A DNA stretch of 64,000 nt from an uncultured Verrucomicrobiota bacterium (lineage in GTDB: Bacteria > Verrucomicrobiota > Verrucomicrobiia > Limisphaerales > JADLHS01). Both the position numbers and the translations under genes were made by a program. Below the pieces are notes generated by a model. It saw only the letters and a program-made list of their open reading frames with translations, had not been told where the DNA came from and did no database searches. The stretch lies in NCBI GenBank assembly GCA_903828255.1, contig CAIKLQ010000998.1, positions 3,133 through 67,132 on the forward strand. The letters are read 5' to 3'. Positions 21,578 through 36,108 of this stretch are shown in pieces (position 1 is the first letter of the stretch; each line of letters opens with the position of its first letter).

Positions 21578-21954
21578 CATTCAGTTCCAGGAAAACTCCG
21601 CAGCGTGGGCATTTGTCCGGCTGCTGTGATTCCCGGATGCGATGCCGCCCCGAAATCGCGCAAGCTGGCTTGAATTGCCGCCAGCGTGAGCGTGTCCTGC
21701 CCGGGAACGGAAGGCGATCCAGCACGACGGAAAGAGGCGGCGCGGTTCTCGGCAGTTTGGGTTTGCCCGACAGCCGCGTCCCTGCGCCCGCGTCTGCGGC
21801 AAGGCGCGGCGCGGCCACGTTCAACAATGTGACCGCGTCATGGGGTTCCCGATTCTCGAAGCACAGGATGGTTTGGAGGGCGCACTGCGCACCCTCGGCC
21901 GCGCCGCCGGAAACTTTGGCGCGGTATTCGCGTTTTATACATTCGGCTGTGAAA

Positions 21955-22614
21955 CCTCGCGGCACTTATCAGATTTCGGCCTGCAAAAACCCGAACAAAT
22001 CCACGTCCTACCGCATCACCGGCATCCAGCCCAACGGTCTCCGCGTCCGTGAAAACTACAAGTCCGAACCTGAGGCTTTTACCCGCAAACCGCAACTCGA
22101 AATCGAGGCCCTCAACTTCGCCCCTGAGAAACACATCACCACCACCCGGCTCACCCCGGCCCAAGAAGCCGACGCCGAGCGCGCCTTTGCCGAACTCGGC
22201 CCGCGCCCGCTCCTTCCCGCCAACCTCCGCGAAGGGTTGTTGCCCCACGCCCTCCGCAAAACGCCGTTCCGTGGTGCCAACTGGCGCCGCGACTTCGATG
22301 CCCTCAATCTGGCGCTGGGCTTTGGCAATCCCGACCAGCGTCCGCGCCGCACGGAAACCGATGCGGAGAAGACGCAACGGAAGGCGCTGCAACTCTGGAC
22401 TCAGGACATTCTGCAGCACACGGCCATCAGCCATCACTTGGCGTATTTCCAGCACGAAGGCAAAACCGCCGAGTGGGCGGGCAACAGCCCCGACATCATT
22501 CAGCGCCATTACAAAGGCTTGGCCAAACCAGCCGACGCGAAAGCATTCTGGACCATCACCCCGGTCGCCCTCGAAAACCAGAGCCTTCCGTTGCCCGCTC
22601 AAGTTGCAGCGTGA
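21955..22614 (+). pseudogene. Tyrosine recombinase/integrase remnant (catalytic core largely deleted)
   Basis: The N-terminal YQISACKNPNKSTSYRITGIQPNGLRVRENYKSEPEA resembles an integrase arm/SAM-like region. The C-terminal LQHTAISHHLAYFQHEGKTAEWAGNSPDIIQRHYKGL resembles the HxxR...Y box. It is too short (about 220 aa) and has no proper start. Confidence 0.45.
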
Positions 22615-22774
22615 ACCAACGCTCGCAAGGCTCGCGCGACCCAAACCGCCCCTCCGCCCAAGTAAATTTTTCCTAACGTTTTGCAGCTTTGTGACGGGGC
22701 GACTGAGTGTTAAATAGCTTACTGCTAGCTAAACAATGATTGCTTTTTGATTGTTTTATATTCACTCTGTACAC

Positions 22775-22993
22775 ATGGAAAACAACGATAAACGCACAAT
22801 GACGCTGAATCTAACGCCCCGGGAAATGGCCGTGTTGGAAGATTTGGCGTCGAAGAAAGATCTCAGCAAGACGGGAGTGATGCGCTTGGCGCTGCGATTG
22901 TTGCAGGCGGTTGACGCGAAGATTCGTATGGGCCAGAAACTCATGTTTGAGGATGAAAAAACCAAGGAAAAGAGCGAGCTGGTCCTGATCTGA
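22775..22993 (+). CDS. Ribbon-helix-helix (CopG/Arc-type) antitoxin-like protein
   Basis: 72 aa. MTLNLTPREMAVLEDLASKKDLSKTGVMRLALRLLQ follows the beta-strand plus two-helix RHH pattern. Low GC. It ends 1 nt before the next ORF. Confidence 0.65.
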   Translation: MENNDKRTMTLNLTPREMAVLEDLASKKDLSKTGVMRLALRLLQAVDAKIRMGQKLMFEDEKTKEKSELVLI

Positions 22994-22994
22994 T

Positions 22995-23600
22995 ATGGAA
23001 GAATCCCGCGTCTATCTGAAGAAAGTGGCAACCGGGGAATTGGTGGAGGCCAGTTTATTGGATGAGGTCACAGATAAGCACTTGGCCCGGTGGAGCAGTT
23101 CGTGGCAGCCGGTCATGCAGGCGCACTCTGTGGGTCGGGTTTTCCGGGATAAGCCCGAAGACCATCACTGGGATTGGACGAGGAAGGCGGGCGAATGATG
23201 TCCGCTGCTCGGCTACCATTCCTTCGCTGTCACGTCTGAGGGAGACTTGCAGGGCTTGATGCTCGCAAGTGGTTTCAAATCCGCACGCGTTCAAGCTCAA
23301 TTTGGCAAGCCCATCGTGTATGTGGAGTTCCTGGCGACCGCACCGTGGAATCGGCCCGAAATCCAGAAGCCTCCACGCTTTCGCGGTATCGGGACAGTCA
23401 TGGTCGCAGCAGCGGTGGAGGTAAGTTGGGAATTGGGATACCGGGGGCTCATGGGCCTCCCCATTCCCTGCTGGCGGCGGAGTTGTTTTACCGAGACACT
23501 TGCAGAATGACTGAACTGGGGAAGGACGCGGCGCATTAGGGATTGATGTATTACGAAATGACAGACAACCAGGCGGAAGAATGGGTGAGGACGCGGGCTT
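22995..23600 (+). pseudogene. GNAT-type toxin gene, disrupted
   Basis: The reading frame continues through an in-frame TGA at 23196-23198 (..WTRKAGE*CPLLGYHSFAVTSEGDLQGLMLAS..). There is a frameshift near 23460 (..GYRGLMGL / HSLLAAELFYRDTCRMTELGKDAAH) and a TAG at 23537-23539. Confidence 0.55.
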
Positions 23601-23712
23601 GGGATTCGCACCTTTCTCATTGCGGAGGTCGGGCTAAATCGGGCGGACAACTTTGCAAAACTTGACCTAGATCAAAGTCCGCGGTTCGCGCGTCGGCTAG
23701 CTTGGACGCGCG

Positions 23713-25248
23713 ATGAAGAAAAAATCTTTACCTCTTTGCCTCCGCGCAAGTTTGATCGCGTCCTTTATTTGCATGGGGGCCGCCCCCGCTCCCGCTCTCG
23801 TGCCGGCCCAGGCGCTCTACGAGCAGCAGTGCGCGGCGTGTCACGGCCTCAACGGCGACGGCAACGGGCCGGCCGCCGTCTGGGTTTACCCCAAGCCGCG
23901 CAACTTCAGCGCGGGCTTGTTCAAAATCAAATCCACGCCCGGCACGGCGCTGCCGACGGACGAAGATTTGTTCCAATCGGTCACGCGCGGATTGCCCGGC
24001 AGTTCCATGCCAAGCTTTTCGTATCTCCCCGAGTCGCAGCGGCGCGAGTTGGTTCAATATGTCAAATACCTGACCAGCTTCGTGGACCAGTCGGGCAAGC
24101 GCGTCAACCGCTTCGAGGCCGCCGCTGCCGGCGGAACGCTCGCCCAGTCGGTGGTCGTGCCGCCGGAAACGCCCAACACTGTCCAGGAACTCACCTTGGG
24201 CCGCGAGACCTTCAAGAAAATGCAGTGCGCGCTTTGCCACGGCGAAACCGGCGCGGGCGACGGTCCGCAAGTGCCGACGCTCAAGGACGCTGCCGGACTC
24301 CCGATCCGCCCGCGCGATTTCAACACCGGCTTGTTCCGCGGCGGTCATACGGGGCGCGATCTTTATCTCCGCATCCACAACGGGCTGGCCGGCACCCCGA
24401 TGGTGCCCTACGGCAGCGACGTGATGAAACCCGAGGAACGCTGGGCGCTCGTTCACTTCGTGCAATCACTGCGCCGCACGGATATTTCAGTCAATGATCT
24501 GCTCACGCCGGAGGATGCGGCCATTCACGTGAAGCAGGTCACTCAGCTTGCCACGGATCCGATGGACAATTACTGGGAGACGCTGGATCCCGTGCGCGTG
24601 CCGTTGAACCCGCTCTGGCCGGAGCCGAATCAGGTTTACGCCGTCTCCGTCTCGGCGGTGACCGACGGCAAGAAACTGGCGGTGTTGCTCCAGTGGCGGG
24701 ATGAGTTGCCACAGACGAGCGCGATTCGCGTGCAGGATTTCCAGGACGGCGCGGCGCTGCAATTTTCCATGACCGGGCGCTTCCCGTTCCTCGGCATGGG
24801 CGACACGAACAACCCCGTCAATCTCTGGCAATGGAAAGCTGGCTGGCAGGCGGAGGTCGGCAGCCACGCGCCCGACGTGCGTGACGCCTACAACTCCATG
24901 CATGTGGATACTTACTTCCAAGAAGACCGCCACTTCGCCACCGCCCGGGACGCGGGAAACGTGATCTCGCAGTTGCACAAGTCACCGGTCGAGGATGCCA
25001 ATGCGCGCGGCTTCGGCTCGTTCAAGTCCCAGCCGATCGCGCAGCAAAACGTGGCCGGCAAGGGCGTGTGGAACGACGGCTTCTGGCATGTGGTATTCAT
25101 CCGCGACTTGAAATCTCCCGATGCGGACGATGTGAAGTTTGCCCCGGGAACGTCCGTGCCGGTGGCGTTCGCCATCTGGAATGGCGAGCAGCGCGACCGG
25201 AATGGCCGCAAGATGATCAGCAACTGGTACCAATTGCTTTTCGACTGA
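23713..25248 (+). CDS. Gamma-type subunit: dihaem cytochrome c fused to EbdC/NxrC-like haem-b (EB_dh) domain
   Basis: 511 aa with a signal peptide. CAACH at 23830-23844 and CALCH at 24226-24240. The C-terminal half ends ..VPVAFAIWNGEQRDRNGRKMISNWYQLLF, typical of type II DMSO-reductase gamma subunits. Confidence 0.75.
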   Translation: MKKKSLPLCLRASLIASFICMGAAPAPALVPAQALYEQQCAACHGLNGDGNGPAAVWVYPKPRNFSAGLFKIKSTPGTALPTDEDLFQSVTRGLPGSSMPSFSYLPESQRRELVQYVKYLTSFVDQSGKRVNRFEAAAAGGTLAQSVVVPPETPNTVQELTLGRETFKKMQCALCHGETGAGDGPQVPTLKDAAGLPIRPRDFNTGLFRGGHTGRDLYLRIHNGLAGTPMVPYGSDVMKPEERWALVHFVQSLRRTDISVNDLLTPEDAAIHVKQVTQLATDPMDNYWETLDPVRVPLNPLWPEPNQVYAVSVSAVTDGKKLAVLLQWRDELPQTSAIRVQDFQDGAALQFSMTGRFPFLGMGDTNNPVNLWQWKAGWQAEVGSHAPDVRDAYNSMHVDTYFQEDRHFATARDAGNVISQLHKSPVEDANARGFGSFKSQPIAQQNVAGKGVWNDGFWHVVFIRDLKSPDADDVKFAPGTSVPVAFAIWNGEQRDRNGRKMISNWYQLLFD

Positions 25249-25290
25249 GATAAACCCCACGCCGCAAACCCCGATTTACCGAGCAAAGCT

Positions 25291-28200
25291 ATGAACGATA
25301 ATCTTTCCCGCCGCTCCTTCCTCCAACGCAGTGGCCTCGCCGGTGCGGGCCTCACCGCCGCCCAGTTCCTGCCGTTGCGTTTCCTCCAGGCGCAACAGTC
25401 TGCCGAGGATGTGAGCAATCCGCTCGCGCACTACCCCAACCGCAACTGGGAGCAACAGTATCGCAATCAATACGCCTACGACCACCAGTTCTCTTGGGTC
25501 TGCGCGCCGAATGACACGCACAATTGCCGCATCACTGCCCACGTTCGCAATGGCGTCATTGTGCGGCTTGGCGAGGAATACGACATCGCCGACTACTCGG
25601 ACCTCTACGGCAATCACGCCACCGCTGCTTGGGGCAATCGCCATTGCGCGAAGGGCTACACCTTCCACCGCATCCTTTACGGCCCGTATCGGCTGAAGCA
25701 TCCGATCGTGCGGCGCGGCTGGAAGCGTTGGGCGGACGACGGTTTCCCCACGCTCACCGCCGAGGTCAAAGCCAAATACAAGTTTGATTCGCGCGGCACG
25801 GATAAGTTCGAGCGCCTGTCGTGGGACGACGCGTTCACCTATATCGCGAAAGCTACCAAGGCCATCGCCACACGTTATAGCGGTGAAGCGGGCGTGAAGC
25901 TCCTCGAATCGCAAGGTTATCCGAAGGAGATGATTGATGACATGGGCGGCGCAGGCACACGCACTATCAAGATGCGCGGCGGCATGGGCTTGCTGGGCGT
26001 GCTGGGCAAGTATGGCATGTATCGCCTGTGTAATTCCCTCGCGCTGCTGGACGTGAACATCCGCGGCGTGAAACCGGAGGAAGCCAAGGCGGGTCGCGTC
26101 TGGTCGAATTACACCTGGCACGGCGATCAAGCTCCCGGCCATCCGTGGGTGCATGGCTTGCAGAACAGCGAGTCGGACTTCAACGATCTCCGCAACTCGA
26201 AGCTCATCATCATGAACGGGAAGAATCTCGTGGAAAACAAAATGGCCGACGCGCATTGGTTCGTCGAAGCCATGGAGCGCGGGGCGAAGATCGTCGTCAT
26301 CGCGCCCGAATACGGCGCGCCGTCCACGAAGTCGGATTACTGGATACCGGTCCGTCCCTCCACGGACGCGGCATTGTGGCTCGGCGTGACGCGACTGATG
26401 ATTGATAACAAGTGGTATGACGAAGCGTTCGTAAAGCAGTTCACGGATTTCCCATTCCTCATTCGCAAAGACAATCTCAAGCGGCTGCGCGCCTCGGAAG
26501 TGTTCGCCAACTACACCAGCACCTTGCCCGCCGATGGTCCGAGCAAGAAGGTCCAGAACATCACGGACGATCAACACAAGAAGCTCGGCGATTATGTGGT
26601 GTGGGATGCGAAATCCAATTCCGCCAAAGCCGTCACACGCGACATGGTGGGTGAGACGTTCGCCAAATCCGGTATTGATCCCCAGCTCGATTTCAACGGG
26701 AAGGTGAAGCTGACCGACGGCAGCGAAGTCGAAGTAGCTACGTCCTGGAGCCTCTACCAGGTTCATCTCAAGGACTACGACCTCGACAGCGTTTCCGAAA
26801 TCACGAGCGCGCCAAAGGAATTGATCGAGCGGCTGGCCAAGGACATCGCGACGATCAAGCCGACTTCGCTGCATCAGGGCGAAGGCATCAACCACTGGTT
26901 CCACGCTACCGAGGCGAATCGCGCGGCGTATTTGCCGCTCATGCTCACTGGCAACATTGGCAAGCCCGGCGCGGGTTGTCATGGTTGGGCAGGGAACTAC
27001 AAGGCGGCTTTGTTCCAGGGCAGCAAGCTTACCGGGCCGGGCTTCAAAGGCTGGGTGGGCGAAGATCCGTTCGAGCAGAATCTGGATCCCAACGCGCATG
27101 GCAAAGACATCAAAGCCCATGCCTACACGAAGGACGAAGAGCCCGCCTATTGGAATCACGGCGACCGCCCGCTCATCGTCAACACCCCCAAGGAAGGCCG
27201 CAAAGTCTTCACCGGCAAATCGCACATGCCGTCGCCGACGAAGGCGATTTTTACGACCAACGTCAACCTGATCAACAACGCCAAGTGGGCTTACGGCATG
27301 ATCAAGAACGTCAACCCGAACGTGGAGTTGATCGTGACGATGGATACGCAGATGACCGCGAGCGTGGAGTATTCCGACTTCGGACTGCCGGCGAATTCGT
27401 GGGTGGAGTTTCAGGACCTCGAGATCACGGCGAGTTGTTCGAATCCGTTCCTGCAAATTTGGAAGGGCGGCATCAAACCGGTTTACGATTCCAAGGACGA
27501 CCTTTCCATCCTGGCCGGCATCGGGGAAGCGCTTGGCAAACTTACCGGGGACAAACGGTTTCACGATCACTTCAAGTTCGAGCATGAGGGCAAGCGCAGC
27601 ATCTACATCCAGCGCCTGCTCGACTCCTGCACCACCACCGCCGGTTACCAACTCAGCGACATCATGGCCGGCAAATACGGCCCGCCGGGCGGCTGTCTGA
27701 TGCTGTTCCGTTCGTATCCGCGCATTCCGTTCTACGAGCAGATTCACGACAATTATCCGTTCTACACGGACACCGGGCGGCTGCATTCCTACAGCGACGA
27801 TCCGACGGCGATTTCCTGTGGCGAGAATTTCATTGTCCATCGCGAAGGCCCGGAGGCCACGCCCTATTTGCCGAATGTCATCGTCAGTTCCAATCCGCTG
27901 GTGCGTCCGAACGACTACGGCATTCCGCTTGACGCCGAGCATTGGGACGAACGCACGGTGCGCAATGTGAAGATGAGTTGGGCCGACACCAAGAACTCGA
28001 AGAACTTTCTCTGGGAGAAAGGGTTTCAGTTCTACTGCCTCACGCCCAAGTCGCGCCACAGTGTCCACTCGTCTTGGGCGAACGTGGACTGGCATCTCAT
28101 CTGGAACTCGAACTTCGGCGATCCCTATCGCTTGGATAAACGCCTGCCGAACGTTGGCGAACACCAGATTCACATGAACCCGCAGGCCGCGCGCGATCTC

Positions 28201-28767
28201 GGCATCGCCGACGGCGACTACGTCTATGTGGACGCTAACCCCGCTGACCGTCCGTATCTCGGCGCGACGCCGAGTGATCCTTTCTACAAGGTGAGTCGCC
28301 TCATGCTGCGGCTGACCTTCAACGCGGCCTATCCCTACAACGTCGTGATGATGAAGCACGGCTCGTTCATCGCCACGGAGAAAACCGTCAAGGCCCAACA
28401 GACTCGGCCCGACGGCCTGTCGCTTACGGAAGAAGGCTACATCTCGAATTTCCGTTTCGGTTCGCAGCAGTCCGTCACGCGCAACTGGCACATGCCGATG
28501 CACCAGACCGACACGCTGTTTCACAAGACGAAGGCGATGATGGCCTTTATCTTCGGCGGCGAGGCGGACAATCACGCCATCAACACAGTGCCAAAGGAGT
28601 GTCTGATCCGCATCACCAAAGCGGAGGATGGCGGTCTTGGTGGCAAAGGCCCATGGAAGCCCGGCACGAACGGCATGTCCCCCGACGCCGAGAATGACGG
28701 AATGAAGAAGTATATCGCCGGTAAGTTCAGCGGCAAGGGCGAGGGTGGTGGAGCACAGTTGGAGTAA
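25291..28767 (+). CDS. Molybdopterin (bis-MGD) oxidoreductase alpha subunit, type II DMSO-reductase family, periplasmic NxrA/NarG-like
   Basis: 1158 aa. Tat leader: SRRSFLQRSGLAGAGLTAAQF. FS0 motif: CAPNDTHNC..x..NRHCAKG. TWHGD aligns with the NarG Mo-ligand Asp region. LYGPYRLKHP resembles NarG LYSANRLKYP. Confidence 0.88.
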   Translation: MNDNLSRRSFLQRSGLAGAGLTAAQFLPLRFLQAQQSAEDVSNPLAHYPNRNWEQQYRNQYAYDHQFSWVCAPNDTHNCRITAHVRNGVIVRLGEEYDIADYSDLYGNHATAAWGNRHCAKGYTFHRILYGPYRLKHPIVRRGWKRWADDGFPTLTAEVKAKYKFDSRGTDKFERLSWDDAFTYIAKATKAIATRYSGEAGVKLLESQGYPKEMIDDMGGAGTRTIKMRGGMGLLGVLGKYGMYRLCNSLALLDVNIRGVKPEEAKAGRVWSNYTWHGDQAPGHPWVHGLQNSESDFNDLRNSKLIIMNGKNLVENKMADAHWFVEAMERGAKIVVIAPEYGAPSTKSDYWIPVRPSTDAALWLGVTRLMIDNKWYDEAFVKQFTDFPFLIRKDNLKRLRASEVFANYTSTLPADGPSKKVQNITDDQHKKLGDYVVWDAKSNSAKAVTRDMVGETFAKSGIDPQLDFNGKVKLTDGSEVEVATSWSLYQVHLKDYDLDSVSEITSAPKELIERLAKDIATIKPTSLHQGEGINHWFHATEANRAAYLPLMLTGNIGKPGAGCHGWAGNYKAALFQGSKLTGPGFKGWVGEDPFEQNLDPNAHGKDIKAHAYTKDEEPAYWNHGDRPLIVNTPKEGRKVFTGKSHMPSPTKAIFTTNVNLINNAKWAYGMIKNVNPNVELIVTMDTQMTASVEYSDFGLPANSWVEFQDLEITASCSNPFLQIWKGGIKPVYDSKDDLSILAGIGEALGKLTGDKRFHDHFKFEHEGKRSIYIQRLLDSCTTTAGYQLSDIMAGKYGPPGGCLMLFRSYPRIPFYEQIHDNYPFYTDTGRLHSYSDDPTAISCGENFIVHREGPEATPYLPNVIVSSNPLVRPNDYGIPLDAEHWDERTVRNVKMSWADTKNSKNFLWEKGFQFYCLTPKSRHSVHSSWANVDWHLIWNSNFGDPYRLDKRLPNVGEHQIHMNPQAARDLGIADGDYVYVDANPADRPYLGATPSDPFYKVSRLMLRLTFNAAYPYNVVMMKHGSFIATEKTVKAQQTRPDGLSLTEEGYISNFRFGSQQSVTRNWHMPMHQTDTLFHKTKAMMAFIFGGEADNHAINTVPKECLIRITKAEDGGLGGKGPWKPGTNGMSPDAENDGMKKYIAGKFSGKGEGGGAQLE

Positions 28768-28787
28768 ATCCGAAAACCGAACCACCC

Positions 28788-29336
28788 ATGCCCAAAGATG
28801 AATTTGATTTTGAAGATCCGCTGGAACTGAACGGCGTAGCGCTGTTCACGCACGAGGACACAACCAACGACATGGCTGAATGTTTCATCGAGGAGTTCAT
28901 GCGCATGGGTTACGGCCACAAGCAAATTCTGGCGCTGTTCCGCAATCCGCAATACCTCGGACCGCACTTGGCCTTCGAGAAGCGTGGCGAACCATTCGTG
29001 CGCGACACCATCACGGAAGTCTTCGCGCGCTGGGGGCGGTTGGCGTCGTGGGCTGGTTCGTCCGAAAATCCCCTCACCTCGACCCTCTCCCCCTCTGAAG
29101 GGGAGAGGGAGAATTGTCCTCCGTCAAATCGCGAACCTGTGACTGCCGAAATGAGATCGGCCAAGGAAATTTCAGAAGGGCGATCATCGCTGTTCCCTCC
29201 CCCCCGCGGAGGGGGAGAGAGTCAGGGTGAGGGGGTAGGCGGGGTGAATTCAGCCGCTGCGCCGACACCGACTTTCGAGTCGGCGGGCGCGTTAACCGAC
29301 CCGATGGGGGCTCCCATTCCGATTTTGAACCTGTGA
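28788..29336 (+). CDS. Hypothetical protein between the alpha and beta genes; C-terminal half built from palindromic repeat DNA
   Basis: The first 85 aa or so look like a real domain (MPKDEFDFEDPLELNGVALFTHEDTTNDMAECFIEEFMRMGYGHKQILALFRNPQYLGPHLAFEKRGEPF). The remainder (..LSPSEGERE..PPPRGGGESQGEG..) is encoded by GC hairpin repeats. Confidence 0.5.
   Translation: MPKDEFDFEDPLELNGVALFTHEDTTNDMAECFIEEFMRMGYGHKQILALFRNPQYLGPHLAFEKRGEPFVRDTITEVFARWGRLASWAGSSENPLTSTLSPSEGERENCPPSNREPVTAEMRSAKEISEGRSSLFPPPRGGGESQGEGVGGVNSAAAPTPTFESAGALTDPMGAPIPILNL
29083..29217. repeat. GC-rich palindromic elements (two hairpins) inside ORF 28788-29336
   Basis: ccctctcccc-ctctgaa-ggggagaggg (29083-29109, perfect 10-bp stem) and ctccccc-ccgcgga-gggggag (29197-29217). 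Confidence 0.8.
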
Positions 29337-29372
29337 CCGCCGCCGCAATTAACCATTTAACCTTACCCTATT

Positions 29373-30644
29373 ATGAGCAACGTCCTTAACTGGCAACTCG
29401 GTCGTGAGATGGAATACCCTTACGACGCAGCCTATCCCGACCAACAGTTCGCATTCATCTTCAACCTCAATCGCTGCATCGGGTGTCAGAGCTGCACCAT
29501 GGCCTGCAAGTCCACTTGGACGTTTTCCAAGGGTCAGGAATACATGTGGTGGAACAACGTCGAGACCAAACCCTACGGTGGCTATCCGCATCATTGGGAC
29601 GTGAAGACGCTCGACCTGCTCGAAAAAGCCAATCCCGGCGGTCAGAATTGGGGCGGCAAGCCCGAGAGTGTGAAGGCACCTTACGGCAAGTTCAACGGCA
29701 AGACCATTTTCGAGGCCGCCAAAACCAACATCGCTCCGGAAGGCGCGAATCGCGCGCTCGGCTACCTCCCGACGGACGAAGAGTGGTCCGCTCCGAATCG
29801 TTACGAAGATCACCCCGTCGGCAACGAGAAGGGCGTGAAGGGGCAATACTTCAAGGGCGGCGAACTGTTGCCTGAGCACAAGACCTGGTTCTTCTACCTT
29901 GCGCGCATCTGCAATCACTGCTCCTACCCGGCGTGTCTTGCTGCGTGCCCACGCAACGCCATTTACAAACGTCCCGAAGACGGCATCGTTCTGGTGGATC
30001 AGGAGCGCTGTCGTGGTTACCGCAAGTGCATGGAAGCTTGCCCTTACAAGAAAACATTTTATCGGGGCACGACCCGCACCAGTGAGAAGTGCATCGCCTG
30101 CTTCCCGCGCGTCGAGGGCAAGGATCAAGCCGGCAAAGGGCTGCCGATGCAAACCCGGTGCATGGCGGCGTGCATCGGTCACATCCGGCTTCAGGGTCTT
30201 ATTGAGTTAAACAAGGACGGCACTTGGAAAGAGAACCGGCAGAGTCCGCTTTACTATCTCATCCACGTCGCGAAAGTGGCGCTGCCGCTGTATCCGCAGT
30301 TCGGCACGGAGCCAAACGGTTATTACATACCGCCGCGTTGGGTGCCGCGACCGTATCTCCAGCAAATGTTCGGTCCGGGCGTGGACGCGGCCATCGAGAA
30401 ATACGCCGCACCGGATCGGGAATTGCTCGCGGTGCTGCAGCTTTTCGGCAAGGACCAACGCATTTGCTATCGCTACGAAATCAAGGAAGGTCCGAAGGTT
30501 TTCGAGACTGAAGTGCGCGGGAAGAAATTCACGCTCTACAACGACACGGTCATTGGTTACGCCAAAGACGGCACGAAGATCATTGAAACCCCTGTGGAAG
30601 AACCCCTCCACGTTCGCTCCGACAAACATGCCAACTCCATCTGA
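29373..30644 (+). CDS. Fe-S beta subunit (NarH/NxrB-like) of type II DMSO-reductase family enzyme
   Basis: 423 aa. Cys clusters: CIGCQSCTMAC, CNHCSYPACLAACP, CRGYRKCMEACP and CIACFPR. Confidence 0.88.
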   Translation: MSNVLNWQLGREMEYPYDAAYPDQQFAFIFNLNRCIGCQSCTMACKSTWTFSKGQEYMWWNNVETKPYGGYPHHWDVKTLDLLEKANPGGQNWGGKPESVKAPYGKFNGKTIFEAAKTNIAPEGANRALGYLPTDEEWSAPNRYEDHPVGNEKGVKGQYFKGGELLPEHKTWFFYLARICNHCSYPACLAACPRNAIYKRPEDGIVLVDQERCRGYRKCMEACPYKKTFYRGTTRTSEKCIACFPRVEGKDQAGKGLPMQTRCMAACIGHIRLQGLIELNKDGTWKENRQSPLYYLIHVAKVALPLYPQFGTEPNGYYIPPRWVPRPYLQQMFGPGVDAAIEKYAAPDRELLAVLQLFGKDQRICYRYEIKEGPKVFETEVRGKKFTLYNDTVIGYAKDGTKIIETPVEEPLHVRSDKHANSI

Positions 30645-31596
30645 ACCAACGCTGAGCGAGCCGATTCCCATGCGTGAATGGGCCGCGCGCAGCGAAGGAG
30701 CGAAGCGCTCAGTGTTCGGTAACTACCGCGAGGATGATCTGGAAAGTAGCCGCCGCCGGGAGGAGGCTCGATCTTCATTTGCGGGCAACCCCGGAACATC
30801 TCAGAGCCTCCCTACGGCGGCGGCTACCAAAGCGGGGTTGCAAAGCTCCATTGACCTCGCGCTCGCCCGCGCCTTCATTCACCGCTTTCTCGCCAAAGCC
30901 TACGAAGACCCGACTGTCGAAGCCTGGCGCTGGCTGACTGATGGGCCGACCACTGCCTCGCTCCGTGGCGCCACCTCGGTGTTCAGCGCAGACCTTGCCA
31001 CCAGCACCGAAGCCTTGATTGACGCCCTCCAACCCGACGCCTTCGATCCGTTCCACTCCGCCTATCTCGCCGCTTTCGGGCACGCCGCGCGCGGGCAATG
31101 TCCGCTCAACGAAATTGAATACGGCGATCTCAAAGCCGATCCGCTCTTTCAGCCGCACCGCTTGGCCGACCTCGCCGCGTTCTACAGCGCCTTCGGCTTG
31201 GAAGTCGCCGCGGACGCCGACGAACGCCAGGATCATATCTGCTTGGAACTGGAATTCAGTTGCGTGCTCGCGGCCAAGGAAGCCTACGCGCTGGAAAATC
31301 AACTGGACGCCGAGGAACTGGCGCTGTGCCGCGACGCGCAAAAGAAATTCCTGCGCGAACATCTCGGCCGGTGGACGCCCGCCTTCGCGCGCCGGCTGGC
31401 GAGCACCACCCCGGACGCCGCGCTTCGCGCTTTGGCGGATTTCACCCGCGGCTTCATCGAGTTGGAATGTGCCCGCTTTGCCGTGAATCCCGGCGGCGAA
31501 GATTTGCTGTTGCGTCCTGTGGATCAAGCCGCCGAGAGCATGTGCGATTCGTGTGGCATTCCCGGTTTGCCGCCCGGCGCGCTGCCCACCACCTGA
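30628..31596 (+). CDS. TorD/NarJ-family chaperone (delta subunit)
   Basis: DHICLELEFSCVLAAKEAY and FLREHLGRWTPAFARRL are typical of the TorD/NarJ/DmsD family. ATG at 30628 overlaps the end of the beta gene. Alternative start is ATG at 30670. Confidence 0.7.
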   Translation: MPTPSEPTLSEPIPMREWAARSEGAKRSVFGNYREDDLESSRRREEARSSFAGNPGTSQSLPTAAATKAGLQSSIDLALARAFIHRFLAKAYEDPTVEAWRWLTDGPTTASLRGATSVFSADLATSTEALIDALQPDAFDPFHSAYLAAFGHAARGQCPLNEIEYGDLKADPLFQPHRLADLAAFYSAFGLEVAADADERQDHICLELEFSCVLAAKEAYALENQLDAEELALCRDAQKKFLREHLGRWTPAFARRLASTTPDAALRALADFTRGFIELECARFAVNPGGEDLLLRPVDQAAESMCDSCGIPGLPPGALPTT

Positions 31597-31683: not shown

Positions 31684-32610
31684 ATGCAACTGCGCTACGA
31701 CGAAGATTTGGTGGAGGCCGCCGTGTTCCTCTGCACGAGCGGGCGGCGCAGCGGGGTGCCCGCGCTGCAAATTGTCCGCTTCCAGCGCGAGCGCGAAAAA
31801 CCCTACGCCATTTCTGACCCGGACGAGCGCAACGCCGCGTTCTTTAAGTTGCACCTCGACTGGTTTCGCGAGTGGGGCTTGGAGACTGTTCTTGCCAGCT
31901 CGGTGAAAGAATTCCCGCTGCTGCCGCAGAGGTTAAACCTGCTCGCCGTGCGCAAGGCCCGCGGGAAAAGCGACGAAGGCGCGGAGCTTTACGTGAATGA
32001 AACCGGCCAGCGCACTGGCATTCTCGCCCTGCGGCCCGAACGGTTCGCGCAAGACGCGGCTTTGTGGGATTATCTTCGTCACGAGTTCACCCATCTGCAC
32101 GACATGGTTGACCCCGGCTTCGGCTATTCACCCGTCCTCGATCTGCCCGCGCTCAACGCCGCTCAAATCCGGCTCGCCCGCGAACGCTACCGTTTGCTGT
32201 GGGACATCACGATTGATGGTCGGCTCACCGCTGCGGGCCACGCGCCCATGGCCGCGCGCGAGCAACACGCCGCCGCATTTGCGCGCGGCTACTCGTTCTG
32301 GCCGGCGGAGCGACAAACCGAGACATTTGATTCACTCTGGGGCAACACCGCGCCGCGGCACGCCGACTTCCTTGCGCTGATTGCCGACCCGCGCGGTTTG
32401 CGGGAGGCGCATCGGCCCGCGCCCGGCGCTTCGTGTCCGTTGTGTGACTTTCCCACATTTGACTGGGTCAACGGCGATTCGCTGTCGCCGCCCGTCACCG
32501 TGCGCATCGCGTCAGAATTTCCAAGCTGGCTCCCCGACCAAGGCCTCTGCGGTCGCTGTCATGAAGTTTACGCCGCAGCGGTGGACACCCGCCTCCAGGT
32601 TGTGTGTTGA
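31684..32610 (+). CDS. Hypothetical HExxH protein with C-terminal CxxC..CxxC zinc-ribbon-like pair
   Basis: 308 aa. HEFTH at 32080-32094 (..YLRHEFTHLHDMVDPGFGY..). The C-terminus carries SCPLCDF ... GLCGRCHE. No family recognised. Confidence 0.55.
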   Translation: MQLRYDEDLVEAAVFLCTSGRRSGVPALQIVRFQREREKPYAISDPDERNAAFFKLHLDWFREWGLETVLASSVKEFPLLPQRLNLLAVRKARGKSDEGAELYVNETGQRTGILALRPERFAQDAALWDYLRHEFTHLHDMVDPGFGYSPVLDLPALNAAQIRLARERYRLLWDITIDGRLTAAGHAPMAAREQHAAAFARGYSFWPAERQTETFDSLWGNTAPRHADFLALIADPRGLREAHRPAPGASCPLCDFPTFDWVNGDSLSPPVTVRIASEFPSWLPDQGLCGRCHEVYAAAVDTRLQVVC

Positions 32611-32644: not shown

Positions 32645-33106
32645 GTGATTCGCATCTGCCAACTGTTCATCTCGCCCGGCCACAATTTCGTCGGCCATCA
32701 CGGCCAGCCGCCGGGCACAAATCCCCTGGTCCCCATGAGCGAGGTGGAATGTGTCGCGGGGCGCGGATTACGCGGGGACCGCTACTTTGAGCGCGAGGAA
32801 AATCACAAGGGCCAGATCACCTTTTTCTCGCTGGAAGTTTTCGAGGCGTTGCGCCAGGAAATGAATTTGCCGGACGCCCAACCCCAAGCTACGCGTCGCA
32901 ATGCGTTCACCCGAGGCGCGGATTTGAATGCGCTCATCGGCCAGGAATTTGAAGTGCAGGGCGTGCGTTTCTTCGGTGTGGAGGAAAGCAGTCCGTGCGA
33001 CTGGATGAATCTCGCGGTCGGGCCGGGCGCGCGGGAATGGTTGAAAGGCCGCGGCGGCTTGCGCGCGCGCATCCTCACCGACGGCGTCTTGCGGCGGGAT
33101 GGCTGA
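32645..33106 (+). CDS. MOSC-domain protein
   Basis: 153 aa, GTG start. GRGLRGDRY.., ..TRRNAFTRGADLN and ..SSPCDWM (conserved Cys) fit the MOSC beta-barrel pattern. Confidence 0.65.
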   Translation: MIRICQLFISPGHNFVGHHGQPPGTNPLVPMSEVECVAGRGLRGDRYFEREENHKGQITFFSLEVFEALRQEMNLPDAQPQATRRNAFTRGADLNALIGQEFEVQGVRFFGVEESSPCDWMNLAVGPGAREWLKGRGGLRARILTDGVLRRDG

Positions 33107-33722
33107 GATGAAGTTCAGCGCCGTCATCCTTGCCGGCGGCGCATCGCGGCGCATGGGTCGCGACAAGGCGGCGATTGCAGTGCGAGGTCTGTCCCTTTTG
33201 GCGCGCGCGGTGGCAACGGTTCGCCGCGCCGGCGTCAGCGAAATCTTTATTTCCGGTCGCGAGGGAGGAAACTACGCGGCAGTGGATTGCCCGGTGTTGT
33301 TCGACGCAAAGCCTGGTTGTGGTCCGCTTGGCGGGATCGAACGGGCCTTGAGCGTGATGAGTTCTCCGCTGCTGCTCGTGCTTGCGGTGGACCTGCCAAA
33401 AATGACAGCGACGTTTCTGCGCAAGCTCCTCGCCGTCTGCGATGCCAACATGGGCGTTGTGCCCAAGTGGCGAGGTGAACTTGAACCGCTGGCCGCCCTC
33501 TACCCAAAACGTTGTCACGCGCTCGTGCTCGCTGCGCTTCGGGAGGATCGTCTGGCCGCGCGCGACTTTGCCGAAGCCTGTCTGCACGCAAAGGCAGTGC
33601 GGACCTTCCCCGTTACTGCGACCGATCGCGTTCGTTTTGCCAATTGCAATTCACCCGGCGATCTCTCGGCTATCGCAAGCCGGGCAACTTGCGGAGTGAC
33701 TGGCTCGCAGGGTTCGAGCTAA
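33099..33722 (+). CDS. mobA: Molybdenum cofactor guanylyltransferase
   Basis: VILAGGASRRMGRDKA.. and GPLGGI.. ..LVLAVDLP are the classic MobA motifs. It overlaps the end of the MOSC gene by 8 nt. Confidence 0.85.
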   Translation: MAEMKFSAVILAGGASRRMGRDKAAIAVRGLSLLARAVATVRRAGVSEIFISGREGGNYAAVDCPVLFDAKPGCGPLGGIERALSVMSSPLLLVLAVDLPKMTATFLRKLLAVCDANMGVVPKWRGELEPLAALYPKRCHALVLAALREDRLAARDFAEACLHAKAVRTFPVTATDRVRFANCNSPGDLSAIASRATCGVTGSQGSS

Positions 33723-33775
33723 GTTCGCCATTCGGCTTGGCGTGGGTCGGGAAACTGGCTAGGCTGGCCGGGCTA

Positions 33776-35008
33776 ATGGCGCACGAGACGTTACTGATGG
33801 TGGTCATCGTCCTGGTTTCCGCCGGGGCGAGCTTCTTTTTTGCGCTCGCGGAAACGGCGCTGTTCTCCCTCGGCACCTGGCAGGCGCGACAGCTCGCGGA
33901 AAAAAATCCCCGGTTCGGCAGTATCGTGAGTCGGCTGCTCGCCCAGTCGGAGGATTTGCTGGCGACGCTGGTGTTGGGCAACACGTTCGCCAACGCCGCG
34001 ATGCTGGCCATCGCGTTGTGGATGGCGCTTTCGGATCATTGGCCGCTCTGGTCCACTGCGGCGGGGTTGCTGGTCCTGATTCTTTTTGGGTGCGAGGTGT
34101 TGCCCAAGACGCTGGCGGTGCGGCAGCCGGAACTGTGGGCGTTGCGCGTCGGGCCGCCCTTGTTTTTCTTCCAAAAACTCACGCTCCCGCTGCGTTGGCT
34201 CGCACAGAAGCTCAACGAGTTGATCCTCGGGATTACCATTCCCAAATCCATCCAACCGCAGTCCGCACTCACCGATGCGGACTATCAAGAGTTGCTCGAA
34301 CTGGCCACGCAGCAGGGCGCACTGGCCCAGAGCGAGAAGGAAATCATTTTGCAGATCATCAGCCTGGATCAGCGCACAGCCAAGGACGTGATGCGGCCGC
34401 GCTCGCGCATGGCGTGCATCTCGGACGAATCCACGGTCGAGGAAATGCTCGCCGCGGCGCGCAAGTTCAAGCACCGCCGGCTGCCGATGTATGACGAAAC
34501 GCCGGACACCATCGTCGGCATCCTCAATACGCGGGCGCTCCTGTTCGATCCGCAAATTGATCTGGCGGATGCCATCGAGTTTCCGTCGTTCGTGCCGGAA
34601 TCCATGAATCTGCTGCAACTGCTCAAAAGTTTGCAGCGCCAGCGACGTGGCCTAGCCATGGTGCTCGATGAATTCGGCGGCACGGCTGGATTGGTCACGC
34701 TGGAGGATATTCTCGGCGGACTCGTGGGCAGTGTCCGCGGCGAAGTGGAGGGCGGGGGATTTGTCTTGGAAAAGCTCGCGCCCGGGCGCTGGCGCGTGAG
34801 CGGCACGATGCGGCTGGACGATTTTCGGCGGGAACATCCGGCATTGGGCGAAGTGCCCGAGGTCGAAACGATGGGTGGTTTGCTCACGCACCTGCTAGGC
34901 GTGGTGCCGGGACCGGGGGAATCCGCGACGTTTTGCGGACTGAAACTCATGGCGCAGGTGACAGATGATCGGCGGGTTCGGGAACTCGTCGTTGAACTGG
35001 GGAAGTGA
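33776..35008 (+). CDS. CNNM/CorC-family transporter (DUF21 + CBS pair + CorC_HlyC)
   Basis: ATG at 33776 (MAHETLLMVVIVLVSAGASFFFALAETALFSL). A CBS region follows, then C-terminal ..WRVSGTMRLDDF.. and ..GGLLTHLLGVVP. Confidence 0.8.
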   Translation: MAHETLLMVVIVLVSAGASFFFALAETALFSLGTWQARQLAEKNPRFGSIVSRLLAQSEDLLATLVLGNTFANAAMLAIALWMALSDHWPLWSTAAGLLVLILFGCEVLPKTLAVRQPELWALRVGPPLFFFQKLTLPLRWLAQKLNELILGITIPKSIQPQSALTDADYQELLELATQQGALAQSEKEIILQIISLDQRTAKDVMRPRSRMACISDESTVEEMLAAARKFKHRRLPMYDETPDTIVGILNTRALLFDPQIDLADAIEFPSFVPESMNLLQLLKSLQRQRRGLAMVLDEFGGTAGLVTLEDILGGLVGSVRGEVEGGGFVLEKLAPGRWRVSGTMRLDDFRREHPALGEVPEVETMGGLLTHLLGVVPGPGESATFCGLKLMAQVTDDRRVRELVVELGK

Positions 35009-35017
35009 AGATGGGGA

Positions 35018-36107: not shown

Positions 36108-36108
36108 C

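What the first reader, a model, noticed from the sequence alone, without database searches (positions are those of the whole stretch)
23713..31596. Periplasmic NXR/pNAR-type molybdoenzyme (type II DMSO-reductase family) in a PVC-like heterotroph background
Five co-directional, tightly spaced genes encode gamma (23713-25248), alpha (25291-28767), an unknown ORF, beta (29373-30644) and a TorD/NarJ chaperone (30628-31596). The alpha subunit has a twin-arginine leader (SRRSFLQRSGLAGAG), so the catalytic site is periplasmic. Aligned by eye to E. coli NarG (HGVNCTGSCSWKIYVKNG), its FS0 motif reads C-APN-D-THN-C-RITAHVRNG (25501-25527). That is C-x3-D-x3-C, with Asp where NarG has Cys. TWHGD (Asp codon 26125-26127) aligns with the NarG Mo-ligand Asp region. 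To my knowledge, the combination of an Asp-substituted FS0, Tat export and a soluble haem gamma subunit characterises the Nitrospira/anammox nitrite-oxidoreductase clade, not cytoplasmic NarGHI. The substrate here (nitrite, nitrate, or another oxyanion or organic compound) is open. Neighbouring genes look like those of a polysaccharide-degrading PVC bacterium, not a nitrifier.
Basis: partly seen in the sequence, partly recalled or inferred. Interest (0 to 1): 0.8.

Follow-up and report, generated by a model that had tools for sequence, protein, structure and literature searches.

The report
Periplasmic NXR-type nitrate reductase operon
A sugar-eating Verrucomicrobium carries a complete operon for a periplasmic molybdenum enzyme of the nitrite-oxidoreductase type; it is real, but common in non-nitrifying bacteria, where it most likely reduces nitrate during anaerobic respiration.

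Summary
The alpha subunit matches Kuenenia NxrA (PDB 7B04) end to end (1736 bits, 63% identity), far above PcrA (186), EbdA (143) and NarG (102). The enzyme is not rare: more than 590 GTDB species representatives encode a relative. In a neighbour-joining tree the window falls in a Verrucomicrobiota subclade (bootstrap 100). That subclade lies inside an 80-sequence clade from non-nitrifier phyla, which is sister to Kuenenia plus Nitrospiraceae. The unit is larger than described. It is a conserved module of gamma, alpha, orfX, beta, chaperone and an uncharacterised 308-aa protein, followed here by MOSC and MobA genes. Gamma is a soluble three-haem protein (two c, one b). The likely role is anaerobic nitrate respiration. 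Limisphaera VF2, a cultured relative with the same operon (alpha 82% identical), respires nitrate. A CRP/FNR-type palindrome lies upstream of gamma in 25 of 30 Verrucomicrobiota-type loci. NXR-like genes in non-nitrifiers are already published, so this is a new member of a known kind, of moderate interest.

The parts
23662..23675 (.). CRP/FNR-type palindrome TTGACCTAGATCAA, 38 nt upstream of the gamma start codon; candidate activator site of the operon
   Evidence: one mismatch to TTGAT-N4-ATCAA; the same palindrome (TTGAY-N4-RTCAA) lies within 200 nt upstream of gamma in 17/30 (<=1 mismatch) or 25/30 (<=2) Verrucomicrobiota-type loci, against 0/31 or 2/31 in other phyla. Background is 0.012 per window (binomial 3e-25). 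Controls upstream of alpha, beta and unk308 give 0/35, 1/28 and 0/25.
23713..25248 (+). gamma subunit (NxrC-like), 511 aa: Sec signal peptide, di-haem cytochrome c domain (CxxCH at nt 23830-23844 and 24226-24240) fused to a haem-b EB_dh domain (ligands M362 at nt 24796-24798 and K500 at nt 25210-25212); no membrane helix
   Evidence: 6h5l_B 153 bits for residues 32-254; 7b04_C NxrC 105 bits for residues 306-508. M362/K500 align with Ks NxrC M155/K305. All are conserved in 63/63 homologues, none of which has a TM helix. The 23773 start used by a public gene call would remove the signal peptide, so 23713 is preferred.
25291..28767 (+). alpha subunit (NxrA-like Mo-bisMGD catalytic subunit), 1158 aa: Tat leader (RR nt 25309-25314), FS0 ligands C71/D75/C79 (nt 25501-25527) and C119 (nt 25645-25647), substrate Asn74 (nt 25510-25512), Mo ligand Asp279 (nt 26125-26127)
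   Evidence: 7b04_B 1736 bits, residues 5-1145; 63% identity to Kuenenia NxrA; residues and their conservation; tree.
28788..29336 (+). orfX, 182 aa; conserved ~85-aa N-terminal cytoplasmic domain of unknown function, always between alpha and beta in this clade; variable low-complexity tail
   Evidence: present in 75/80 loci at the same position; alignment; invariant D10 P11 M29 E35 E36 F51 G58 G67. No Pfam or NCBIfam family. Absent between nxrA and nxrB in the Nitrospiraceae loci.
29373..30644 (+). beta subunit (NxrB-like), 423 aa, 16 Cys arranged for three [4Fe-4S] and one [3Fe-4S] cluster
   Evidence: (7b04_A 603 bits, full length; PcrB 205, EbdB 196, NarH 178).
30628..31596 (+). TorD/NarJ-type private chaperone (delta); start codon uncertain (30553 TTG, 30628 ATG or 30670 ATG)
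   Evidence: PF02613 68.9 bits; TIGR03482 96 bits; 63/80 loci; public call starts at 30670.
31684..32610 (+). unk308: conserved cytoplasmic protein of unknown function with an RHExxHxxDM block and a C-terminal CxxC...CxxC (C251, C254, C289, C292); sixth member of the conserved module
   Evidence: 57/80 loci, always after the chaperone; invariant residues; 826 homologues, all 'hypothetical protein'; no Pfam; AF2 pLDDT 67; no fold match.
32645..33106 (+). MOSC-domain protein, co-directional accessory gene in Verrucomicrobiota versions of the operon
   Evidence: PF03473; 17 loci, close relatives only.
33099..33722 (+). MobA molybdenum-cofactor guanylyltransferase (makes the MGD form of the cofactor); overlaps the MOSC gene by 8 nt
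   Evidence: PF12804 113.6 bits; MobA equivalog models 86-104 bits, below their curated cut-offs; recurs next to the module in 16-17 loci.

Best explanation
The region encodes a soluble, periplasmic, Tat-exported Mo-bisMGD nitrate/nitrite oxidoreductase of the NXR type: alpha-beta-gamma with a private chaperone.

Shown here: the wiring runs Mo (Asp279) - FS0 (3Cys/1Asp) - four FeS clusters in beta - a Met/Lys-ligated haem b - two c-type haems in the fused N-terminal domain of gamma. No subunit has a membrane anchor, so the complex must exchange electrons with periplasmic or membrane-bound cytochromes c.

Inferred: in this facultatively anaerobic, polysaccharide-degrading Verrucomicrobium the enzyme works mainly as a respiratory nitrate reductase. 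Menaquinol would be oxidised by a quinol:cytochrome c oxidoreductase (alternative complex III in Limisphaera). Electrons would then pass through cytochrome c to the gamma c-haems, haem b and the FeS chain, and on to nitrate at the periplasmic Mo site. The nitrite produced would stay in the periplasm, where an NrfAH-type enzyme can reduce it, so no nitrate or nitrite transporter is needed. Expression would be switched on by a CRP/FNR-family regulator (Dnr/NarR-like) binding the palindrome at 23662-23675 when oxygen is low or N-oxides are present. The chaperone, orfX and unk308 (all cytoplasmic) together with MOSC and MobA would serve cofactor insertion and assembly before Tat export.
For: Identity of the enzyme:
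- Alpha, beta and gamma each match the Kuenenia NXR crystal structure best: 1736, 603 and 105 bits.
- Alpha is 63% identical to KsNxrA.
- The catalytic and FS0 residues are identical.
- In the NJ tree the superclade has bootstrap 100.

Direction of catalysis:
1. Limisphaera sp. VF2 has the same operon (L017: alpha 82%, beta 83% and gamma 67% identical, same gene order). VF2 and strain 4302-co grow by anaerobic nitrate respiration. Their 'distant NarGHI homologs' are absent from the strictly aerobic L. ngatamarikiensis. These strains have NrfAH, alternative complex III and MK-7, and do not grow lithoautotrophically (PMC13608581).
2. A CRP/FNR-type palindrome is conserved upstream of gamma in 25/30 Verrucomicrobiota-type loci, including VF2, and is essentially absent from the controls.
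3. Crp/Fnr-family regulators (6 loci), Rrf2-family regulators (14 loci) and hemerythrins recur next to the module. No terminal oxidase or CO2-fixation genes recur.
4. Purified Kuenenia NXR reduces nitrate about 25 times faster than it oxidises nitrite in vitro (1.5 umol against 61 nmol per min per mg; PMC8387239). The chemistry is therefore available.
5. From established knowledge, the architecture (soluble periplasmic alpha-beta-gamma with a haem-b gamma fed by cytochrome c) is the one used by the type-II reductases SerABC and ClrABC.
Against: - No experiment links this operon to nitrate reduction. The Limisphaera evidence is a correlation across three strains, and I could not see the paper's supplementary gene table to confirm that its 'distant NarGHI' genes are the L017 operon.
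- The closest biochemically characterised relatives (Kuenenia, Nitrospira) use the enzyme physiologically for nitrite oxidation.
- The Met/Lys haem b is a high-potential centre typical of oxidising enzymes such as EBDH and NXR.
- CRP/FNR-family regulators respond to many effectors. The neighbouring regulator lacks an FNR-type Cys cluster, so oxygen or NO sensing is inferred, not shown.
- Only 64 kb of this genome was visible. Nrf, alternative complex III and oxidases could not be checked in this organism.
Confidence: 0.62

Rival explanations
1. The enzyme works as a true nitrite oxidoreductase. The Verrucomicrobium, and the other phyla in the clade, would oxidise nitrite to nitrate as a supplementary energy or electron source. 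Electrons would pass through the gamma c-haems to a cbb3/caa3 oxidase, or to another high-potential acceptor when oxygen is absent.
For: - The enzyme belongs to the periplasmic NXR superclade and shares all catalytic and FS0 features with Kuenenia and Nitrospira.
- The high-potential Met/Lys haem b is retained.
- Suarez et al. 2023 proposed exactly this role for Planctomycetota MAGs carrying Kuenenia-like genes.
- Limisphaera genomes encode cbb3 and caa3 oxidases.
Against: - The clade is sister to the nitrifier/anammox sequences, not nested within them.
- The cultured carrier is an organoheterotroph that respires nitrate and shows no lithoautotrophic growth. Nitrite oxidation itself was not tested.
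- Regulatory context points to CRP/FNR and Rrf2 control rather than the sigma-54-type regulators seen beside Nitrospiraceae nxr.
- No oxidase or carbon-fixation genes recur near the module.
- Many carriers, such as Omnitrophota and Methylomirabilota, come from anoxic settings; this last point rests on general knowledge of those phyla and was not tested here.
Confidence: 0.2
2. The enzyme is used in both directions as a redox valve. It would reduce nitrate when organic electron donors are in excess and oxygen is absent. It would oxidise nitrite (detoxification or electron supply) at oxic-anoxic interfaces, as Kuenenia NXR can do.
For: - Bidirectional catalysis has been measured for KsNXR.
- The soluble complex is linked to the cytochrome c pool, which can connect to both quinol:cytochrome c oxidoreductases and terminal oxidases.
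Against: No evidence here favours a physiological oxidative role. The arguments against the nitrite-oxidiser reading apply equally.
Confidence: 0.12
3. The enzyme acts on a different substrate (chlorate, perchlorate, selenate, arsenate, dimethyl sulfide or an organic compound), and its similarity to NXR reflects ancestry only.
For: - Type-II DMSO-reductase-family enzymes have changed substrate repeatedly.
- The best NCBIfam hits are the generic type-II models, all below their curated cut-offs.
Against: - Alpha is 63% identical to a characterised nitrite/nitrate enzyme. The substrate Asn (Ile in EbdA), the SNYTWHGDQAPGHP Mo-ligand segment and the FS0 ligands are all unchanged.
- Scores against PcrA, EbdA and NarG are about ten times lower.
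- Limisphaera VF2 does not respire selenate or arsenate, but does respire nitrate.
Confidence: 0.04

Closest known systems
Kuenenia stuttgartiensis NXR-ABC (kustd1700/1703/1704; PDB 7B04; Chicano et al. 2021)
   Same: - Soluble, Tat-exported alpha-beta-gamma complex.
- Alpha 63% identical over 1143 residues; beta 603 bits over the full length.
- Identical FS0 ligands (3Cys/1Asp), substrate Asn and Mo-ligand Asp.
- Gamma haem b with Met/Lys ligation.
   Different: - Kuenenia NxrC (322 aa) has no fused di-haem cytochrome c domain.
- The Kuenenia enzyme forms tubules with NXR-T inside the anammoxosome. The window has no candidate for such a subunit: only gamma, unk308 and two unrelated ORFs carry a CxxCH motif.
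- Gene order differs: A..B-C in Kuenenia, C-A-X-B-D-Y here.
- In the tree the window lies in the sister clade, not with Kuenenia.
Nitrospira/Nitrospiraceae NxrAB (periplasmic NXR of canonical nitrite oxidisers)
   Same: Same superclade (bootstrap 100), with the same FS0 Asp, Asn and WHGD motifs and a Tat-dependent periplasmic orientation.
   Different: - About 52-55% identity.
- nxrB follows nxrA directly. No gamma, orfX, chaperone or unk308 homologue lies within 10 kb.
- NxrC is expected to be membrane-bound in nitrite oxidisers (PMC8387239).
- A sigma-54 activator lies near one of the two Nitrospiraceae loci, rather than a CRP/FNR-type site.
'Distant NarGHI homolog' of Limisphaera sibirica VF2 and L. 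vallis 4302-co (PMC13608581, 2026)
   Same: - Same operon: alpha 82%, beta 83% and gamma 67% identical, with the same gene order through the MOSC gene.
- Same CRP/FNR-type palindrome upstream.
- Same carbohydrate-degrading Verrucomicrobiota (Limisphaerales) background.
   Different: Different species: thermophilic isolates against an uncultured metagenome scaffold. The paper files the genes under membrane-bound NarGHI. Read here, they encode a periplasmic NXR-type enzyme with no NarI-like membrane subunit.
Putative NXR genes of non-anammox Planctomycetota and KSB1 MAGs (Suarez et al. 2023, PMC10732223)
   Same: The same kind of observation: Kuenenia-like NxrA (above 1000 bits) in heterotrophic PVC genomes. 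One MAG from that study (Sumerlaeota OFTM353, L050) falls in the same 80-sequence clade with the same module.
   Different: Those authors favoured nitrite oxidation. The regulatory and physiological evidence gathered here favours nitrate reduction, at least for the Verrucomicrobiota subclade.
Periplasmic type-II reductases SerABC / ClrABC / PcrAB and haloarchaeal pNarGH
   Same: They work alike: soluble or outward-facing Mo-bisMGD alpha, FeS beta, haem gamma (Ser, Clr), a TorD-type chaperone, and electrons supplied from the quinol pool through cytochromes.
   Different: - Only 25-38% identity.
- FS0 has Cys (or His) where this enzyme has Asp; WYAD replaces WHGD.
- Different substrates.
- pNar couples to a Rieske/cytochrome b module that is absent here.

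Membership tests
Type II (Asp-ligated) DMSO-reductase family | Mo-bisMGD catalytic subunit with a conserved Asp as the protein ligand to Mo | tested here: met
   D279 in SNYTWHGDQAPGHP aligns with Ks D275. It is invariant in all 90 aligned sequences.
Type II (Asp-ligated) DMSO-reductase family | N-terminal FS0 [4Fe-4S] motif (H/C)-x3-(C/D)-x3-C...C in alpha, a four-cluster FeS beta, a haem gamma and a TorD/NarJ-type delta | tested here: met
   C71/D75/C79/C119; beta with 16 Cys and a Fer4_11 match; gamma with EB_dh; delta with PF02613.
Type II (Asp-ligated) DMSO-reductase family | Scores above the curated NCBIfam cut-offs of TIGR03479/03478/03477/03482 (models built on the Ser/Clr/Ddh/Ebd/Pcr group) | tested here: not met
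   These are the best hits for all four subunits, but all fall below the cut-offs: 342 against 985, 258 against 481, 125 against 170 and 96 against 152 bits. The enzyme lies outside that narrower subgroup, as Kuenenia-type NXR does.
Periplasmic NXR lineage (Nitrospira / Nitrospina / anammox type) | Twin-arginine signal on alpha (periplasmic active site) | tested here: met
   TIGR01409 at 19.7 bits, above the 16.7 cut-off; RR at residues 7-8. An RRxF/L motif is present in 73/80 clade members.
Periplasmic NXR lineage (Nitrospira / Nitrospina / anammox type) | FS0 with 3Cys/1Asp coordination | tested here: met
   D75 is conserved in 78/78 scorable clade members, in Kuenenia and in Nitrospiraceae. 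It is Cys in four type-II outgroups (PMC8387239).
Periplasmic NXR lineage (Nitrospira / Nitrospina / anammox type) | Alpha groups phylogenetically with NxrA of known nitrite oxidisers and anammox bacteria | tested here: inconclusive
   The window is inside the superclade (bootstrap 100), but in a sister clade to Kuenenia plus Nitrospiraceae (bootstrap 97), not nested among them. The tree is neighbour joining with one Nitrospiraceae anchor from a frameshifted assembly and no Nitrospina anchor.
Periplasmic NXR lineage (Nitrospira / Nitrospina / anammox type) | Physiological nitrite oxidation | not testable with these tools
   The only physiology available is for Limisphaera, which respires nitrate. 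Nitrite oxidation was not assayed there.
Membrane-bound cytoplasmic NarGHI | No signal peptide on NarG, His-ligated FS0, and a NarI di-haem-b membrane anchor | tested here: not met
   A Tat signal is present; Cys and Asp occupy the positions of His and Cys; no NarI-like protein or membrane helix is in the cluster. The narG equivalog model scores 129 bits against a cut-off of 1084.
Ethylbenzene dehydrogenase / perchlorate, chlorate, selenate reductases | Alpha clusters with EbdA, PcrA, ClrA or SerA; the substrate-pocket residue differs (Ile in EbdA) | tested here: not met
   PcrA 186 bits and EbdA 143 bits, against 1736 bits for NxrA. Asn74 is retained. The EbdA equivalog scores 164 bits against a cut-off of 2000.
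NapAB periplasmic nitrate reductase | Cys-ligated Mo, roughly 830-aa NapA, di-haem NapB | tested here: not met
   NapA models score 40-50 bits against cut-offs above 900.

The most novel reading that the evidence does not exclude
The large NXR-like sister clade, found in Verrucomicrobiota, Planctomycetota, Omnitrophota, Methylomirabilota, Binatia and others, could represent unrecognised facultative nitrite oxidisers, or anaerobic nitrite oxidation coupled to other acceptors. Nitrate production in nature would then not be confined to the few known nitrifier lineages. The conserved, uncharacterised orfX and unk308 proteins would be new dedicated assembly factors of this enzyme type.
Probability: 0.12. 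Interest if true: 0.8.

Novelty: new member of a known kind. Interest (0 to 1): 0.4.

Why it matters
- Gene surveys count 'nxrA' (and the shared KEGG narG/nxrA orthologue, as I recall it) as nitrite-oxidation potential. A clade this large, more likely to be reducing nitrate in heterotrophs, means such counts can point in the wrong direction.
- The clade is the nearest outgroup to nitrifier and anammox NXR. It therefore bears on how nitrite oxidation evolved from anaerobic nitrate respiration.
- A cultured, sugar-grown thermophile (Limisphaera) carries the enzyme. That offers a much easier source of an NXR-type complex than Nitrospira or anammox enrichments, and a system in which to test what sets the catalytic direction.
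- Two conserved genes of unknown function travel with the enzyme and are candidates for new maturation factors.

Tried and rejected
- The published full NxrA alignment (supplement of PMC8387239) is machine-read and too corrupted to use for a tree. I used it only to build two 107-aa baits.
- The bait search returned only N-terminal fragments of up to 188 aa and no clear Nitrospina sequence. I recovered a Nitrospiraceae nxrA from the surrounding DNA instead, but that assembly is frameshifted and had to be stitched. Its identities are therefore underestimates.
- No maximum-likelihood program was available. The tree is neighbour joining on Kimura-corrected distances with 100 bootstraps.
- NCBIfam gave no names for nine of the 50%-identity representatives, eight of which served as outgroups.
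- unk308: no Pfam or NCBIfam family. The AF2 model with a 46-sequence alignment reached only pLDDT 67, and the best Foldseek hit against the PDB had E = 2.5.
- orfX: no family, and the single-sequence AF2 model (pLDDT 57) is unusable.
- My by-eye reading of the upstream ORFs (21613-23510) as integrase / RHH / GNAT got no Pfam support, so I dropped it. These ORFs have no counterpart next to the operon in any other locus.
- There are no tRNA or Rfam matches in the window. The generic promoter and terminator scan was at background level.
- I found nothing about the Kuenenia genes between nxrA and nxrB, so whether orfX has an anammox counterpart is unknown.

Full report

Yes. The five + strand ORFs are at the reported coordinates and are tightly spaced.

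- Pfam and NCBIfam give the expected assignments. Gamma is an EB_dh haem-b domain plus cytochrome c domains. Alpha is a molybdopterin oxidoreductase with a Tat signal that passes its cut-off. Beta is a 4Fe-4S dicluster protein with 16 cysteines. The last ORF is a Nitrate_red_del / TIGR03482 chaperone.
- The motif coordinates are exact. RR is at alpha residues 7-8, C71-x3-D75-x3-C79 at nt 25501-25527, C119 follows, and TWHGD has the Asp279 codon at 26125-26127.
- These residues align with C67/D71/C75/C115 and D275 of Kuenenia NxrA. The structure paper defines those as the FS0 ligands and the Mo ligand. It also states that the histidine of NarG/EBDH sits at the position of Ks C67 (PMC8387239).

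**2. What is it?**

All three structural subunits have the Kuenenia stuttgartiensis nitrite oxidoreductase crystal structure (7B04) as their best solved relative.

| Subunit | Match to 7B04 | Next best |
|---|---|---|
| Alpha | 1736 bits over residues 5-1145 | PcrA 186, EbdA 143, NarG 102 |
| Beta | 603 bits, full length | PcrB 205 |
| Gamma, C-terminal half | NxrC 105 bits | N-terminal half matches a Kuenenia di-haem cytochrome c, 6h5l_B, 153 bits |

Full-length identity of alpha is:
- 63% to Kuenenia NxrA;
- about 52% to a Nitrospiraceae NxrA stitched from a frameshifted assembly, which is an underestimate (Kuenenia against that copy gives 57%, against about 60% in the literature);
- 70-82% to homologues from other non-nitrifier phyla.

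It has a Sec signal peptide and two CxxCH motifs with conserved candidate distal methionines (M99, M230). A haem-b domain follows, whose Met362/Lys500 align with the Met155/Lys305 ligands of Kuenenia NxrC. All of these are conserved in 63 of 63 full-length homologues, and none has a membrane helix. No protein in the cluster has a transmembrane segment beyond that signal peptide. The complex is therefore soluble and periplasmic, with a built-in wire from Mo to two c-type haems.

**3. How common is it, and where does it sit?**

It is not rare.

- The alpha subunit has more than 2000 homologues at E <= 1e-20. The top 120 are all at least 71% identical. Those that carry organism names are mostly Verrucomicrobiota, followed by KSB1, Phycisphaerae, Opitutaceae and others. 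NCBI already names some of them 'nitrate oxidoreductase subunit alpha'.
- A scan of one genome per GTDB species found at least 592 genomes with a relative. The best 80 (70-93% identity) come from Verrucomicrobiia/Limisphaerales, Binatia, Methylomirabilota, Omnitrophota, Phycisphaerae, Planctomycetales and Sumerlaeota. They include one cultured isolate, Limisphaera sp. VF-2.
- In a neighbour-joining tree (90 sequences, 1138 columns, 100 bootstraps) the periplasmic NXR superclade has bootstrap 100. Within it, Kuenenia plus Nitrospiraceae group together (97). All 80 loci plus the window form a separate clade (100). The Verrucomicrobiota sequences form a subclade (38 tips, 100) that holds both the window and Limisphaera VF2.
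- The FS0 aspartate, the substrate asparagine and the WHGD motif are conserved across the whole superclade. Four type-II outgroups have Cys and WYAD instead.

However, it belongs to a sister lineage of the nitrifier/anammox enzymes rather than to them.

**4. The unit is bigger than reported.**

tblastn of the window proteins against the 80 loci shows a module conserved in order and strand: gamma, alpha, orfX, beta, chaperone, unk308. The counts are 74, 80, 75, 71, 63 and 57 loci, and the misses are mostly contig ends.

- In close Verrucomicrobiota relatives, MOSC and MobA genes follow. Elsewhere MoaA, MoeA, MoaB and MobB recur.
- The 'unknown ORF' between alpha and beta is therefore a conserved gene: an ~85-residue cytoplasmic domain with a variable tail.
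- The sixth gene (31684-32610) encodes a cytoplasmic protein. It has a nearly invariant RHExxHxxDM block and four invariant cysteines in a CxxC...CxxC arrangement.
- Neither protein matches a Pfam or NCBIfam family. The 826 homologues of unk308 are all unnamed, and its predicted structure has no match in the PDB.
- The two Nitrospiraceae loci show nxrA directly followed by nxrB, with none of the other four genes within 10 kb. The operon layout separates this clade from canonical Nitrospira.

**5. Which way does it run?**

The active site cannot answer this. Purified Kuenenia NXR works in both directions and reduces nitrate about 25 times faster than it oxidises nitrite in vitro. Three lines of context point to nitrate reduction here.

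First, physiology of a cultured carrier.
- L017 is from Limisphaera sp. VF-2 and has the same operon (alpha 82% identical). It is embedded among glycoside hydrolase genes, as the window's operon is embedded among carbohydrate-related genes.
- The 2026 description of strains VF2 and 4302-co reports anaerobic respiration with nitrate and nitrite on sugars and no lithoautotrophic growth. It also reports NrfAH, alternative complex III instead of bc1, and MK-7 as the only quinone.
- It reports 'distant homologs of membrane-bound NarGHI' only in these two strains, not in the strictly aerobic type species (PMC13608581). I infer that those genes are this operon, but I could not see the supplementary table.

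Second, regulation.
- A CRP/FNR-type palindrome (TTGACCTAGATCAA, 23662-23675) lies 38 nt before the gamma start.
- The same TTGAY-N4-RTCAA element lies within 200 nt upstream of gamma in 17/30 (<=1 mismatch) or 25/30 (<=2 mismatches) Verrucomicrobiota-type loci, including VF2. In other phyla the counts are 0/31 and 2/31. Background is 0.012 per window, and controls upstream of alpha, beta and unk308 give 0-1 hits.
- Crp/Fnr-family regulator genes lie next to the module in six loci. Rrf2-family regulators lie upstream in fourteen loci of other phyla, and hemerythrin genes recur.
- The Crp/Fnr protein I inspected has the E-xx-SR recognition helix that reads FNR boxes but lacks an N-terminal cysteine cluster. 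It therefore resembles Dnr/NnrR/NarR more than FNR. This is my reading, not a test.

Third, what is absent. No terminal oxidase, carbon-fixation or nitrite-transport genes recur within 10 kb.

From established knowledge, soluble periplasmic alpha-beta-gamma enzymes with a haem-b gamma fed from the quinol pool through cytochromes c are the standard design of selenate and chlorate reductases. The architecture is therefore as consistent with a reductase as with an oxidase.

**6. Proposed mechanism (inferred).**

1. Menaquinol is oxidised by a quinol:cytochrome c oxidoreductase.
2. Electrons pass through cytochrome c to the gamma c-haems, haem b, FS4-FS1 and FS0, and reach the Mo-bisMGD site.
3. 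Nitrate is reduced to nitrite in the periplasm.
4. An Nrf-type enzyme may then reduce the nitrite.

Alpha and beta would be loaded with cofactors in the cytoplasm with the help of the TorD/NarJ-type chaperone and MobA, possibly also orfX, unk308 and the MOSC protein. They would then be exported by Tat on the alpha signal peptide. Gamma would be exported by Sec and receive its c-haems in the periplasm.

I put about 0.6 on nitrate respiration as the main role, 0.2 on nitrite oxidation, 0.1 on genuine two-way use and a few percent on another substrate.

**7. Comparison with what is known, and novelty.**

- The enzyme type is well characterised (Kuenenia structure; Nitrospira and Nitrospina genomics).
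- Kuenenia-like NXR genes in non-anammox Planctomycetota and KSB1 MAGs were published in 2023 and interpreted as possible nitrite oxidisers (PMC10732223). One MAG from that study (Sumerlaeota OFTM353, L050) is in the same clade.
- The Limisphaera paper noted the genes but filed them as distant NarGHI.
- This window adds a new member from an uncultured Verrucomicrobium. Its source is ENA scaffold BUCK21-1_SAMEA6872811.
- I did not find the following described in the papers I read: the conserved six-gene module with two unknown proteins, the universal di-haem-c fusion on gamma, the sister-clade position, and the lineage-specific CRP/FNR-type site.

These refine a known kind and do not define a new one.

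**8. Limits.**

- The tree is distance-based. It has one noisy Nitrospiraceae anchor and no Nitrospina, Nitrotoga or Thermogutta references.
- Organism labels of several MAG loci (Bifidobacteriaceae, Akkermansia, Limnocylindrales) are almost certainly binning or labelling errors, because those sequences nest within the Verrucomicrobiota subclade.
- Only 64 kb of this genome is visible, and it contains no other respiratory genes.
- The direction of catalysis rests on correlation and regulatory inference, not on an assay.

Noticed in passing
window 1-4500: The first ~4 kb have a much lower G+C content (0.51) than the rest of the window (0.58-0.65). The three long minus-strand ORFs there (751-2205, 2251-3165, 3191-4519) have no Pfam family apart from a weak PEGA domain. 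This may be a foreign island.
   Followed up: no
window 21613-23510: Three small or medium ORFs lie directly upstream of the operon (public gene calls at 21868-22614, 22775-22993 and 23259-23510). They have no Pfam family and no counterpart next to the operon in any of the 80 related loci, so the upstream junction is specific to this genome.
   Followed up: partly
window 33775-37455: Three consecutive CNNM/CorC-type (DUF21-CBS-CorC) paralogues follow MobA. Only two of the 80 loci show similar genes nearby, so they are probably unrelated to the NXR module.
   Followed up: partly
window 13113-13904, 18400-19350, 43464-44276: There are several prepilin-like N_methyl genes, one also with a DUF1559 match, and a 1584-aa protein with MBG, CBM_4_9 and cadherin-like domains (44741-49495). 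These are typical of Planctomycetota and Verrucomicrobiota genomes.
   Followed up: no
L002, L006, L056 (labelled Bifidobacteriaceae), L022 (labelled Akkermansia muciniphila), L003 (Limnocylindrales), L012 (Myxococcales): These public MAG records carry organism labels that disagree with the gene tree. Their NXR-like alpha sequences nest deep inside the Verrucomicrobiota subclade (85-93% identity to the window), which suggests mis-binned contigs or wrong labels.
   Followed up: partly
L081 10001-14525 and L082 10001-14911 (Nitrospiraceae MAG GCA_046351075.1): Both nxrA copies of this MAG are split into several ORFs by frameshifts (188+674+305 aa in L081), probably from assembly errors. Public protein sets therefore hold truncated 'hypothetical' or 'TAT signal' fragments of NxrA.
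   Followed up: partly
L053:5-1462 and homologues in L007, L020, L027, L064: A multihaem cytochrome c (c554/c7-like Pfam hits) recurs within a few kb upstream of the module in five loci. The Limisphaera paper reports a Hao-like gene confined to the same strains that carry the operon. This may be a partner for nitrite or hydroxylamine turnover.
   Followed up: no
L058:16625-17035 and homologues in six other Omnitrophota/Planctomycetales loci: A small ferredoxin-like protein (Fer4_10) with an N-terminal RR motif lies directly after unk308 in seven loci, as an extra lineage-specific component of the module.
   Followed up: no
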